64,000 bases of DNA from positions 26,784,001 through 26,848,000 of the forward strand of contig OX597819.1 of assembly GCA_951406725.2 (NCBI GenBank), written 5' to 3'. Made by a program: the position numbers and the translations under genes. How positions within the stretch are numbered: the first letter of the stretch is position 1; each line of letters starts with the position of its first letter. Origin of the DNA: Octopus vulgaris (taxonomy: Eukaryota). Under the pieces are notes generated by a model. That model was not told the origin of the DNA and ran no database searches. It saw only the letters and a program-made list of their open reading frames with translations. Positions 1,350 to 34,970 of this stretch are shown here, one piece after another.

Positions 1350-1559
1350 TTTTGTCCGAGTCAGACGCCATGATAGATCGTTAGCTACTACACACATCTT
1401 GTTTCTCTCCTTGTTTTTTCTGTGTACCTTTCTGTAGAAGAGCGTAGGCTCGAAACTTAAACGACTTTTTCTATTCCTGAGCGCTATACTAATACATCTA
1501 TTTGTTTTGTACACCACCTATCTTCGTCTTTTGTTGTTTTTTTTTCGTAAACTTTCCCT
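1350..1559 (+). mobile_element. Short element family E (~200 bp) in (TA)n with hammerhead-like motif
   Basis: Homologous to 29175, 29384, 32628, 34491; motif CTGTAGA-AGAGC-GTAG-GCTC-GAAA at 1432-1455. Confidence 0.75.
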
Positions 1560-4547
1560 ATATATATATATATATATATATATATATATATATATATGGA
1601 AGCATCCCGATCAGAATTCTCGACCCGTAATATACAGATGCTCAATTAACTCGTCTACGAGGCCCTTTCACCTAGTGTATACGTTGCCGAGTATTCCACA
1701 GACAAATATATCCTTAATGCAGTTTTCAAACAGAATCATCGGAAGTGTCACGATCTTGACATTTTGATCACAGGTATGATCTATCCGATGTGCGTCTACA
1801 CAATCTACATTTGCCTAAGTTTACTGAAAATGCATAGGTTGACTAGAGATTGTAGCAAATGGCAATTTTACTAGCTTCTACGCAGTAAAATTGAAATGCG
1901 AAGATTATATCTGTGAAGTGAATCTCTTAAACGTATGTCAGTTTTATATCTTCAAACTTATGTTTTTCAAAAGAAATGTACGATAGACCAACCTGTGATT
2001 ATTTTGTATGTGTCTCGTCTCTGGCGTTTGAAAATTTGCTCCTTTTATAGTAAGTTTATGATTGAAATCTCCTTCAGTTGAGAAAGTGTTCGGTTGGATG
2101 AATCTGATTATAAAGTCAGGGGATCTTGTGATGATATGAAAACTTTCGCCAAAGCCTGAGGCTATCTTAGGCCAGTAAACGTTTTACTAGACAGTATGTC
2201 CACGAATAAGTCCACTTGATATTTGGACGACATTTTCACTAAAATTACAGGCCTTGAAATTACGGTGAATACGTTATGTGTTGGTATGAACTAAAATATG
2301 GAAGATGAGCTAAATACAAACAGCTTACTATTGTGTACATGATAGAACGTGTTCTGTGTGGGAATAGAGTAATATATGTTATTACAGCTTATCTTGTTGT
2401 GATTAATAACTTTTAATAAACATACTTTCTTCATTTACATGTAATTGATCGGTGGTTTTGTTGGAATTTAGCTTAAGTGGGAAGACGTGGAATTTGGGTG
2501 ATTTTTTTTCTTTTTGTTTTGCTGTATATAAGACTTCTAGAATCTATTTGATAAATGGATAGCGTATATGTTACCCTTGAATATTGAGTTTGTTTCTGAG
2601 GATAAAGTTGCTTGTGTAAACTTTGCTACAACTAATCTAAACATACTGTAATGTTTAAACCCCAGATTTGACATAAAAACAGCATTACTTCAGGCCCTTT
2701 CATATCACAATACCTTTGAAAATCAATAAAATTAGGGAAAAGAGTTATGTAAATGTAAATAGATCTATTTAAATACTACAAATACATATTCAATTTCTTT
2801 ACACACACACACACACACACACACACATATATATAAATATATATATATATATATATATATATATATATATACAAACACACAAACCGCTGTTTTTTCGCTT
2901 AGCAACCCTCAGTTCTTTCACCTATTAAAGTCTATAATTGAAATAAGATGCTGCAATTAATGATAGCTAAATAATTGTGATCAAAATAAACAAGATGAAA
3001 CACTTATAAAAATATATATACCACAATAGTTCCGATTCACGAGTTCTTGATATTATGCATGTGAATAGCATTTAAAATTAATAAAAATACATTGTGTGAT
3101 ATAATTTTCTGGTTATCATGTTTTAGGTTAGCACAATGGATTCAATTTGAAATCTACTGATACACAGTTTTTCTCCGGGAATATTTTAAGCAGAGCGATC
3201 ACATAATAGCATAGACATATTAACAGGAAAATTATTTATATCGTAACATTTTTTGCCACTATAACATGGCTGTTCTATGCAGAACTGTGTTATTACATTT
3301 TGACCCCAGGAAAACGCTTCTCTCTTCACTCCTTCGCGCCACATGGGCTCAACTCCCCTCCCCTCCCCTCTTCATCTCCCTCCCTCCTCTCCTCTCTTGC
3401 CCTGGCACCTACGTCGTCTCTTCACTCCTACCCACCTTCTTGGCAAGACAAATAGATCATGGTTACTGGGTCATCGGTACTGGATATCTGTCTGCTAGAT
3501 ATGACAGTCAACCATCCCTACTCACAAGATATAAACAGAGAAGCGGCAGACAATTACGGATCTCGTAACGGGCAAAGTAGCTAATTCTGAAATCTCTAAA
3601 CGTGATATAAATATATATACATATATGTATATATATATATATATATATATATATATATATATATATATATATATATATATATATATATATTGTAACGTGT
3701 ATGTATTACAGCTCATCATTCCCATTATGTTAACTGCATTGTGTCTAGCCACACACTTCCAGCCAAAGTAAATAGAAAAATCATTTCATCTGCCTTTATC
3801 ATATTTTGCTGCAAGTCTAAAACTTACATTTTCTCTATAAAGAGCTAACATTAAAAAAACTTATGACACTAAAACACAGTAACAAGTAAAGAAGACTTCT
3901 ACATTTTATATTTTATTATATATTTTATTCGACTGGTTTCCTTTGTCCAGTTAATCTTAATTTTTTTTCCTAAAGTATCTGTAGAAACAATGTGCTTTGT
4001 GTGAATATATTCTGCTAGTGTCTGAATGATGACAATTTTTGTTGTGTATTTTTTTAAAATCGATTTCTAAATCCTATAGAGGTTATCAATTAGTGACAGC
4101 AATTTGCTGGAGTTTAAGGAAGATTAATGTCCATTTTAGAAAGCGATAAAAACATCTTTGCTGAAGTTGATAGCTTCGGCTTTTAGAGTGATATATGTAT
4201 ATGGGTGTATGCCTCTTTCTCTCTCTCACTCTCCCTCTCTCTTTCACTATCTATCTGTATCTAGCTCTCTCTCTCTCTCTCTCTCTCTCTCTCTCTCTCT
4301 ATATATATATATATATATATATATATATATATATATATATATGAATGCATACATACATACATTCATACATACAAACATACATACATACATACATACTTAC
4401 ATACATATGAATAAACTGATAAGTATGTATGTATATATATATATATATATATATATATATATATATAGATAGATAGATAGATAGATAGATAGATAGATAG
4501 ATAGATAGATAGATAGATAGATAGATAGATAGATAGATAGATAGATA

Positions 4548-4872
4548 TGCTGAGACCCTCTTCGGTCATGACTGACCATGGGATTGCATCTAGATAGTTA
4601 CCCTCCCAGGCATAAGTCCGGGCAAGGTTGTTTTATGGAAGACCTAGAGTTGGCCATGCATACCGGCCTCCCCACTGCATGCCACCAGCATTATCAAAGG
4701 CAAAGGCCGATACAGCTTGGCACCTGTGACGTCGGAACTCAGCTGAGTAAATTGGAGCAACGGGAAATAAAGTGCCTTGCTCAAGAACACAACACGCAGC
4801 CCGGTCCCGGATTCGAACTCACACCCTCACGATCGTACGATCGACGCTCTAACCACTGAGACATGCGCCTTC
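4548..4872 (-). mobile_element. SINE family C (tRNA-derived)
   Basis: Minus strand reads gaaggcgcatgtctcagtggttagagcg (A box)...gagttcgaatcc (B box) then gttgtgttcttgagcaaggcacttt; 3' end abuts (GATA)n. Confidence 0.8.
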
Positions 4873-33194: not shown

Positions 33195-33545
33195 GTGAAG
33201 CGGTCTTCGTCCCGTCAGTGGGAGATGTCTGAAACGTGGCCGTTTGTTATTCGTAAGTCCCGCAGAAGAGAAAGCAGGTCGACCTCCGACACCGAGAGCA
33301 TCGACGGATGGATGAATGCGCATCCAGGCTCAGCGGTTGCGTACGAATTCGGGACAAGAAGCAGGAAGAAAGAGTGAGAGAAAGTTGAGGCGAAAAAGTA
33401 ACACAAGGGTCGCCACCACTCCCTGTCGGAGCATCGTGGTGCTTTAGGTGTTTTCGCTCAATAAACACACACAATGCCCGGCCTGGAAATCGAAACCGCG
33501 ATCCTCCGACCGCGAGTCCGCTGCCCTAACCACTAGCCCATTGAA
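33195..33545 (-). mobile_element. SINE family D (tRNA-derived), alternative tail
   Basis: Minus strand ggctagtggttagggcagcggactcgcggtcggaggatcgcggtttcgatttcc; head and body shared with 49457-49817. Confidence 0.8.
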
Positions 33546-34258
33546 TGTTGTGATACACCGATTCACAGAATGCTATCACATCTGCTTGAGCCATGTCGTA
33601 GTCCTAGCCAAAATACATTACTATAGGTATAACACTTAAAATTGCATCAAAATTACCGTTTAGTTGATATGTATGCCTACTATTTATTATGATGGGAACA
33701 TAGGAGGAGGTTTCAATTTAATCAATAACTCAGTTTCTTCTCAAATATCTGTATAATACCTTAAAGCGAAAAAACCCAGATTCATGCAAAAATCTATCAT
33801 TAGCCTATATTTAAACTCTACAACACTCGCTTCAAATATTTGAAACACAAAGAGATTTAATGGTCACGCCAGGAAATATATTTGGTCTTAAGTTTGCTTG
33901 ATAGCAGGCAAATAATAACGAGGTGATACAATCGAACCAATTGGGAAGTCTCTGTATAGCTGTTTAACATGCTAGAAATAACAGATTGATCATTGGAGAA
34001 TATTACTTTCGAGCAGATAGGTTTTCTAACCAGAACCTCATGTTTTCGTCCACATCAGCTGTAATTAGAATGATAGATATTTTGCAGTGGTATTGATGTT
34101 ACTAATCCAGTTTCTATTACTAAATGAGTAATACAGTGAAAATTAAACTTTCACATCAGGTTTCGCATGAGACATCAGGTTTCACTGTAAATATATATAA
34201 ACTTTCTGTATGTATGCGTACATATATATACTGGTTGTTAAAGCAGTGTGGCTCATAT

Positions 34259-34970
34259 AGGCGCAGGCGTGGGTGTGTGGTAAGAACCTTGCTTCCCAAC
34301 CACACGGTTCGGGGTTCAGTCCCACTGTGTGACACTTTGGTCAAATGTCATCTACTATAGCTTCGAGACAAGCAAAGGGGAGTGGATTTGATAAATGGAA
34401 ACTGAAAGAAGCCCGTCGCATATATATATATAATATATATATATATATATATATATATATATATATATATATATATATATATATATATATTCTGTCCCTG
34501 TTTATTTCTGTGTTCCTTTCTGTCGAAGAGCGTGGGCTCGAAACGTAAAATATTTCTCTCTTTCTGAGCGTTAAACTAATACATCTGTTTGTTGTGTACA
34601 AACCCGTCTTTTATCTTTTGTTTTCTTGTAAATTCTCACTATATATATATATATATATATATATATATATATATGTGTGTGTGTGTGTGTGTGTATATAT
34701 GTATATATATATATATGTGTGTGTGTGTATGTAAAGATATATATATATACATATTTATATATTTGTGTGTCTGTGTTTGTCCCTCCACCATCGCTTGACA
34801 ACCGATGTTGGAGTATTTACGACCGCTTAACTTAGCGGTTCGGCAAATGAGATCGATAGAATAAGTACTAGACTTACAAAGAATAAGCCCTGGAATCGAT
34901 TTGTTCGACGAATAGTGGTGCTCCAGCATAGCCGTAGTCAAATGGCAAAAACCAGTAAAAGAATAAAAGA
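34259..34970 (+). mobile_element. SINE family A with a family E element nested in its internal (TA)n
   Basis: Head at 34259, tail ends ~34970; insert at 34491-34640. Confidence 0.82.
34491..34640 (+). mobile_element. Family E element (5'-truncated) with hammerhead-like motif
   Basis: CTGTCGA-AGAGC-GTGG-GCTC-GAAA-CGTA-AAA at 34520-34550. Confidence 0.75.

What the first reader, a model, noticed from the sequence alone, without database searches (positions are those of the whole stretch)
1432..34550. Family E carries a conserved non-canonical hammerhead core (CUGUNGA) with a free position 7
Seen: five copies read CTGTAGA (1432), CTGTGGA (29240), CTGTTGA (29466), CTGTGGA (32750, minus) and CTGTCGA (34520). 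Most keep helix II GAGC/GCTC (G.U-compatible GTTT at 29256), with loops GTAG/GTGG/ATAA, then GAAAC. Position 7 and the loop vary while U6 is fixed. Known: N7 is the unconstrained hammerhead core position, whereas A6 is normally conserved. Inference: a natural A6U variant ribozyme kept under structural selection in the source elements; related family F has the canonical CUGACGA-type core.
Basis: partly seen in the sequence, partly recalled or inferred. Interest (0 to 1): 0.75.

Follow-up and report, generated by a model that had tools for sequence, protein, structure and literature searches.

The report
Jumping-gene hammerhead with fixed A6U core
A very abundant, recently active jumping gene in this animal genome carries a hammerhead-ribozyme motif in which one normally invariant core letter (A to U) has stayed changed through a long series of source elements while the rest of the motif was preserved, so it is likely a slowed-down self-cutting RNA, though cutting is untested.

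Summary
The five motifs are real. They are end-fragments of a recently active Neptune-type Penelope-like retrotransposon. 13 of 20 long copies fetched carry the U6 motif in both terminal repeats around an RT plus GIY-YIG frame. Genome-wide, 14,944 of 15,487 exact motif matches have U6, which is as fixed as G8. Position 7 takes all four bases, tracks subfamilies and is not CpG decay. Across seven subfamilies only N7 and the cleavage-site N17 changed (0 of 33 other motif sites against 33 of 90 flank sites). Distant relatives have A6 in 17 of 17 motifs, so U6 is derived.

Two first-reader points fail. Loop II is fixed in the sources (GUAG), and its variants are decay. Sister family F is mostly not canonical: 8,134 matches have a non-U (nearly all C) at position 4, against 3,283 with U4.

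Cleavage is untested, and no truncation footprint at the cut was found. Best reading: a selected, attenuated, likely protein-assisted minimal hammerhead. I found A6U in no paper searched, but a key paper (Lünse 2017) was unavailable. Natural A6C is published. This scan noted the same A6U core earlier on another genome. New variant of a known kind.

The parts
1428..1463 (+). Minimal type I hammerhead motif, copy 1 (core CUGUAGA at 1432; subfamily g5). Private changes G16.2>U and one helix I base; predicted dead. Lies in a pLTR fragment of about 1361-1560 ending at (TA)n.
28753..29339 (+). Longer 5'-truncated PLE end: degraded end of the endonuclease frame, C/T-rich 3' UTR and pLTR, ending early at (TA)n.
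   Evidence: 72.7% over 99 nt to the ORF end of full-length L262; 67.5% over about 360 nt to L073/L093
29236..29271 (+). Hammerhead motif, copy 2 (core CUGUGGA at 29240, GUU cut triplet; subfamily g4). Two private C>T changes in the 3' strand of helix II give G.U pairs.
29384..29600 (+). pLTR fragment of a young subfamily (g6), 97-99% identical to the 39 other best genomic copies over 136 nt, flanked by (TA)n.
29462..29497 (+). Hammerhead motif, copy 3 (core CUGUUGA at 29466, GUA triplet). One private A>C in helix I.
32725..32760 (-). Hammerhead motif, copy 4 (core CUGUGGA, C3 at 32756, GUU triplet; g4). Loop AUAA and the inserted U are private decay. Fragment about 32631-32783.
34516..34551 (+). 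Hammerhead motif, copy 5 (core CUGUCGA at 34520, GUA triplet; g3). Loop GUGG is a private change. Fragment about 34490-34640 between (TA)n runs.
60301..60328 (-). Sister family F copy with the U4C core (CCGACGA), the majority form of F in the genome.

Best explanation
Family E is the terminal repeat (pLTR) of a recently active Neptune-type Penelope-like retrotransposon, and it carries a minimal type I hammerhead motif whose core A6 was replaced by U and then kept, with the rest of the motif, through at least seven successive subfamilies; it likely works as a slowed, dimer- and protein-dependent self-cleaving RNA. Shown: the anatomy, the parent element, fixed U6, free N7, A/U switching at N17, and purifying selection on the 35-nt block in the source lineage. 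Inferred from published PLE work: the element is transcribed as pLTR-ORF-pLTR RNA; two motifs pair through the palindromic ACGU to supply helix III; the element's own protein helps folding; cleavage occurs after GUA or GUU; reverse transcription starts internally about 90-100 nt downstream of the cut on uncleaved RNA and inserts at (TA)n. Inferred: because uncut RNA is the template, a slow ribozyme is tolerated or favoured, so U-turn changes that lower the rate (A6U in E, U4C in sister family F) can fix while the catalytic G8/G12 and the scaffold cannot. The five window copies are single, decayed stubs and are predicted to be inactive.
For: Parent element: Pfam RVT_1 above cut-off and a weak GIY-YIG hit in one 974-aa frame; Cys-rich CxxxxCxxC linker before the endonuclease; direct terminal repeats 97-99% identical; U6 motif in both repeats in 13 of 20 long copies and downstream of the frame in 20 of 20; mean pairwise ORF divergence 0.6% among 19 copies. 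Selection: on a tree built only from flanks, N7 needs 20 changes against 57 for shuffled labels and N17 9 against 23, while non-U bases at position 6 are scattered (28 against 29.5, P=0.18). Among seven subfamily majorities, 0 of 33 motif sites other than N7/N17 differ against 33 of 90 flank sites (Fisher P=6e-6); N7 changes 4 times and N17 3 times. These two are the positions that the hammerhead consensus leaves free (PMC7151607 introduction). Helix I shows a compensatory swap between families, C-G in E and G-C in F. Derived: 17 of 17 motifs found beside distant relatives have A6. Natural A6C ribozymes keep low activity (kobs under 0.1 per min, PMC3088659 section 8; 0.3 per min in Mn2+, PMC7151607). 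A PLE hammerhead cleaves only with the element's protein, and unprocessed RNA is the main template (PMC11167929).
Against: No cleavage data. In a mutational scan of another hammerhead all single mutants in the CUGA region had low activity (PMC9901934 passages), and minimal PLE hammerheads are weak even with a canonical core (PMC4209133), so A6U on top may mean no cleavage at all. Hammerhead-dead mutants did not impair insertion in vitro (PMC11167929). Loop II and the extra A are as fixed as the catalytic bases, so the constraint is not purely catalytic, and I found no pairing partner for the loop. No clear excess of 5' truncation at the predicted cut. The subfamily groups were drawn by eye (76 of 124 copies) and include motif-selected copies; with unselected copies only, majorities matched in 5 of 7 groups, and differed in g1 (3 copies; N7 and two loop bases) and g3 (one CpG site).
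Confidence: 0.55

Rival explanations
1. The motif no longer cleaves. It is kept as a hammerhead-shaped RNA structure that the element's protein recognises (binding, positioning of the reverse-transcription start, or packaging).
For: Loop II and the extra A are invariant like the core. Both sister lineages fixed damaging U-turn changes. Catalytic mutants did not affect insertion in vitro (PMC11167929). Naiad elements proliferate without canonical hammerheads (PMC8557442 passages). No truncation footprint.
Against: Every other catalytic-core base stayed fixed through 50 flank substitutions (P about 0.002 for 11 sites at the flank rate), and the only free sites are N7 and N17. A binding site would have to reproduce that pattern without catalysis.
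Confidence: 0.27
2. U6 is fully compensated (by the fixed GUAG loop, the extra A, a flanking strand or the protein), and the ribozyme cuts as fast as an A6 version.
For: The U6 family is the most abundant hammerhead family I counted here (15,487 exact matches against 11,417 for F) and has near-identical intact copies. Sporadic A6 copies did not spread.
Against: Published position-6 changes lower activity. No compensating contact was found.
Confidence: 0.1
3. The block is conserved at the DNA level (internal promoter or protein-binding site in the pLTR), and the hammerhead pattern is a relic.
For: PLE promoters are reported to lie in pLTRs (PMC6765202 passage). The whole block, loop included, is fixed.
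Against: Freedom at exactly N7 and N17, helix I covariation between E and F, and the same architecture with different helix II sequences beside distant relatives point to an RNA fold.
Confidence: 0.06
4. No selection: U6 is a founder mutation carried along by one successful source element, and N7 variation is decay.
For: A single fixation event is enough to explain U6 itself.
Against: N7 tracks subfamilies, CpG decay is far too weak, and the block stayed unchanged across subfamilies that are 2-14% diverged from their own majorities.
Confidence: 0.02

Closest known systems
Minimal type I hammerheads (min-HHR) in pLTRs of metazoan Penelope-like elements (Cervera and De la Pena 2014, PMC4209133; read parts 1-2 of 4, supplement part 2 of 3 and search passages)
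   Same: Position in both pLTRs, short helix I, extra base after A9, G10.1-C11.1, GAAA, palindromic CG in place of helix III, UH, U-rich 5' flank; most copies are solo stubs.
   Different: Position 6 is U. Their descriptor hard-codes cuganga and every row of the alignment part I read has A6; the core variant they report is U3-A8.
Natural A6C hammerhead of phage Bcep176 (Perreault 2011, PMC3088659, section 8 and passages; Naghdi 2020, PMC7151607, parts 1-2 of 4)
   Same: A pyrimidine at position 6 in a natural hammerhead.
   Different: C rather than U; one phage locus rather than tens of thousands of retroelement copies; activity measured there, untested here.
Protein-assisted hammerhead of the anole Poseidon element PAc (Frangieh 2024, PMC11167929, parts 1-2 of 4)
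   Same: PLE hammerhead upstream of a fixed internal reverse-transcription start; AT-rich targets.
   Different: No position-6 change is reported there; Poseidon clade; the motif overlaps the ORF start, whereas here it lies several hundred bases upstream of the likely start codon.
Neptune/Nematis-type EN+ Penelope-like elements (Craig 2021, PMC8557442, passages only)
   Same: Single RT plus C-terminal GIY-YIG frame, Cys-rich linker, pLTRs, (TA)n targets.
   Different: Only the ribozyme core differs; clade placement against named references was not tested.

Membership tests
PLE min-HHR (canonical) | Located in pLTRs of a PLE | tested here: met
   Both repeats in 13 of 20 long copies
PLE min-HHR (canonical) | First box CUGANGA | tested here: not met
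   U6 in 14,944 of 15,487 matches; so filed as a variant, not a canonical member
PLE min-HHR (canonical) | Position 7 unconstrained | tested here: met
PLE min-HHR (canonical) | Extra base after A9, helix II closed by G10.1-C11.1, GAAA box | tested here: met
   helix II pairing probability 1.0 in the short fold of the intact copy, 0.54 with flanks
PLE min-HHR (canonical) | Palindromic 15.2-16.2, then U16.1 and H17 | tested here: met
   ACGU followed by A or U in all seven subfamily majorities
PLE min-HHR (canonical) | Helix I of 3 or more pairs | tested here: met
   CUUU/AAAG in the family; C-G in E against G-C in F; damaged in four of five window copies
PLE min-HHR (canonical) | Self-cleavage as a dimer or with protein | not testable with these tools
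   Genomic truncation proxy inconclusive
EN+ Penelope-like element, Neptune-type | One frame with RT and C-terminal GIY-YIG | tested here: met
   RVT_1 32.2 bits (cut-off 29.6); GIY-YIG 17.4 bits, below its 22.6 cut-off but with the YIGQT motif; homologues carry the same domains
EN+ Penelope-like element, Neptune-type | Cys-rich linker between RT and endonuclease | tested here: met
   CSRPRCRTC before the endonuclease; shared by Neptune and Nematis
EN+ Penelope-like element, Neptune-type | Direct pLTRs, tandem arrangement, (TA)n targets | tested here: met
EN+ Penelope-like element, Neptune-type | Falls in the Neptune clade of a reference RT tree | not tested
   No named reference proteins were on hand
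Non-LTR retrozyme | Non-autonomous short tandem units with a hammerhead in each | tested here: not met
   Copies are dispersed 5'-truncated ends of an autonomous element; the neighbours at 29240 and 29466 belong to different subfamilies

The most novel reading that the evidence does not exclude
Penelope-like elements repeatedly evolve detuned hammerheads by changing the CUGA U-turn (A6U in family E, U4C in sister family F of the same genome) while keeping the catalytic bases, because a slow, protein-switched ribozyme preserves uncut RNA for reverse transcription; A6 is then not an invariant of natural hammerheads, and descriptor searches have missed whole families.
Probability: 0.35. Interest if true: 0.72.

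Novelty: new variant of a known kind. Interest (0 to 1): 0.52.

Why it matters
What the hammerhead does for a Penelope-like element is described as unclear (PMC8557442). Here a very young, intact, autonomous element carries a non-consensus core in both repeats, and its sister family carries a different one, with canonical relatives as controls. That is a ready-made test of whether cleavage or only the fold is selected. If U6 cleaves, the list of tolerated natural cores grows and searches that hard-code CUGANGA are missing tens of thousands of motifs in one genome. If it does not, it shows a ribozyme fold kept for a non-catalytic job. The five window copies themselves are ordinary decayed stubs.

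Tried and rejected
Rfam scan of the window at E<=1: 214 matches, the 150 listed are all microsatellite-driven miRNA models and none is a hammerhead; 64 lower rows were not shown.

CpG decay as the cause of N7 variation: rejected. Loop II as a freely varying site: rejected. A hidden A6 subfamily inside E: not supported; non-U6 copies are scattered on the tree, although three A6/T7 copies sit in the oldest group and an old A6 layer cannot be excluded. An A6 family with loop GUCU exists but has F-type helix I.

Cleavage footprint in 5' truncations (hand counts). Young subfamilies: 31 of 83 true junctions among 100 listed rows (17 indel artefacts dropped; 114 matches in all) fall in the class that includes the cut, but that class pools several breakpoints through microhomology with (TA)n; scaled, about 35 seen against 23-28 expected. 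Older GUA subfamily: about 5 junctions at the cut, no more than at neighbouring positions; most of the 100 listed rows were indel artefacts. Inconclusive.

N17 avoiding G as proof of a cleavage rule: rejected, because A>G is only 1 of 8 source-level changes from A in the flanks. A pairing partner for loop II: none conserved across subfamilies.

Expression: no RNA holder listed; only contigs were available, which cannot show RNA ends. In contigs of four runs with four organism labels, no variant at 5% or more was listed at position 6 (29469), and T>C at position 7 was 16-22% in three of them; weak, since matching favours the young subfamily. Viral contigs: no relative. The representative-protein search gave only unnamed relatives.

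Literature: ten searches showed no natural A6U hammerhead; I saw listings only for most hits, and did not open the two hits for 'A6U'. Lünse, Weinberg and Breaker 2017, the largest survey of these motifs (seen only as a reference entry), is not held and may contain position-6 variants. One supplementary file of PMC4209133 was not searched, and bioRxiv 10.64898/2026.07.22.740005 was read in part 1 of 5 only. PMC11014351 passages were not relevant.
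Full report
Observation. Each parses as helix I (CUUU/AAAG), C3 U4 G5 U6 N7 G8 A9, one extra base, helix II GAGC/GCUC with a 4-nt loop, GAAA, CG, U and A or U. Alignment with family F (CUGACGA, same spacing, no gap) shows that U6 replaces A6 rather than shifting the register. Rfam did not list a hammerhead among the 150 of 214 rows shown.

Genome-wide counts. The genome is 2.8 Gb in 227 contigs; earlier scan notes call it octopus-like, which I did not test. The 30-nt motif with positions 6-7 free has 15,487 exact matches, control 0. 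Non-T at 6: 543, mostly C (about 71 of the first 100, hand count), as expected for transitions after insertion. Non-G at 8: 488. So U6 is as fixed as G8. N7 shows all four bases. C7A8 copies number about 110 against roughly 6,400 T7G8, so CpG decay does not explain N7. The loop is GUAG in 14,944 of 17,886, about 4% change per site, so it is fixed in the sources. In 1.36 Mb taken without regard to the motif (the window, 100 kb of its flanks and 120 spaced stretches) a profile found about 38 copies or fragments, which suggests some tens of thousands in the genome.

Parent element. Copies extended upstream run into a GIY-YIG endonuclease frame with a Cys-rich linker. A protein search returned 114 scored matches of 24,049 candidates at 92-100% identity, with open frames up to 1,214 aa. 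Of 20 long copies fetched, all have the U6 motif downstream of the frame and 13 also have it upstream, about 4.5 kb away. In the four copies checked, the repeats are 97-99.7% identical. Nineteen ORF cores differ by 0.6% on average. Pfam gives RVT_1 above cut-off and GIY-YIG below it. Linker and (TA)n targets match the description of Neptune-type PLEs (PMC8557442 passages). In 128 of 173 copies (many of them young ones I had selected) a TA run begins 90-104 nt after the predicted cut, which fits the internal reverse-transcription start reported for another PLE (PMC11167929).

Selection in the sources. I aligned 124 distinct copies (44 not selected for the motif) and built a tree from flanks only (117 copies kept). 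N7 needs 20 changes against 57 shuffled and N17 9 against 23, both beyond all 1,000 shuffles. Non-U bases at position 6 need 28 against 29.5 (P=0.18), so they are private mutations. I grouped 76 copies by eye into seven subfamilies whose members are 14% to 2% diverged from their own majority. N7 runs T, T, C, G, A, T, T and N17 A, A, A, U, A, A, U. None of the other 33 motif sites differs, against 33 of 90 flank sites (P=6e-6). With unselected copies only, five of seven groups gave the same majorities; g1 (3 copies) and g3 differed at N7, two loop bases and one CpG site. The block that is fixed includes loop II and the extra A, so the constraint is wider than catalysis alone.

Polarity and the sister family. 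Around 80 metagenome loci that encode relatives of the protein, a relaxed descriptor found 17 motifs, all with A6 (two U4C, one U3-A8, one C3G); shuffled control 0. U6 is therefore derived. Family F is homologous (same helix II and downstream motif, helix I pair swapped). Its canonical form has 3,283 matches and its non-U4 form 8,134, with C4 in 98 of the first 100. On a flank tree of 29 F copies, position 4 needs 2 changes against 9.9 shuffled, and 14 of 15 C4 copies form a nested group. So two related lineages each fixed a change in the CUGA turn and nowhere else in the core. I did not recover F's parent element.

Activity. Not testable here. Published evidence cuts both ways. Natural A6C cleaves slowly in Mg2+ and well in Mn2+, and a U4C viroid variant stays infectious (PMC3088659 passage). 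Single CUGA mutants were low in a mutational scan. Minimal PLE hammerheads are weak even as dimers. The anole PLE motif cleaves only with protein, and dead mutants still insert in vitro. A test for 5' truncations piling up at the cut was inconclusive. Folding shows helix II is stable in short context, and that U6 allows an alternative U4-G5-U6-N7 pairing with the AACG strand that would close the monomer into an inactive rod; this is a prediction only.

Mechanism and odds. Attenuated, dimer- and protein-dependent cleavage 0.55; non-catalytic RNA structure 0.27; fully compensated ribozyme 0.10; DNA-level element 0.06; no selection 0.02. Anatomy, parent, fixation, polarity and selection are shown. 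Transcription, dimer formation, protein help and cleavage are inferred from other PLEs.

Novelty. PLE minimal hammerheads are known (PMC4209133), and their descriptor fixes A6. Ten literature searches showed no natural A6U, but the largest survey (Lünse 2017) could not be read. Earlier notes of this scan report an A6U family on another genome and A6C families elsewhere; these are unchecked. I rate it a new variant of a known kind, interest 0.52.

Noticed in passing
window 60301-60328 (-); genome-wide: Family F is dominated by a U4C core (CCGACGA), 8,134 non-U4 against 3,283 U4 exact matches, a second family-wide change in the CUGA turn.
   Followed up: partly
window 60751-60778 (-), 7030-7057 (-), 26303-26336 (+): Other minimal hammerhead copies: an A6 motif with a CAU loop, a decayed F copy, and a decayed copy of family G (6-bp helix II, A6).
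   Followed up: partly
L151, minus strand, 8667 and 9029; L146; L154: Family H: U3-A8 core with palindromic CGCG, two copies 362 nt apart, retrozyme-like.
   Followed up: no
L262 (reverse strand), junction of the 5' pLTR and 5' UTR: Inside full-length elements the pLTR end is followed by a short TATATAT, matching the (TA)n target; this could let the cut target pair with the RNA at the internal start.
   Followed up: no
about 20 nt downstream of the cut in E and F (window 1478-1484): A conserved YGAGCG can pair with the 3' strand of helix II and disrupts the hammerhead in several longer-context folds; a possible off-switch, with no covariation to test it.
   Followed up: partly
rows (5 of 64): Some 5' junctions carry a short duplicate of the sequence just downstream of the predicted cut, suggesting template jumps there.
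   Followed up: no
L039/L040 (G000:C1:1878302-1878479): Two G7 copies in inverted orientation 150 nt apart, a typical PLE inverted insertion.
   Followed up: no
window 28092-28251: Fold-back of two 74-nt arms, 88% complementary, 12 nt apart; possibly a MITE, unrelated to family E.
   Followed up: no
window 3317-3396: 80-nt match (75%) to the end of the endonuclease frame of the parent element; an old PLE remnant.
   Followed up: no
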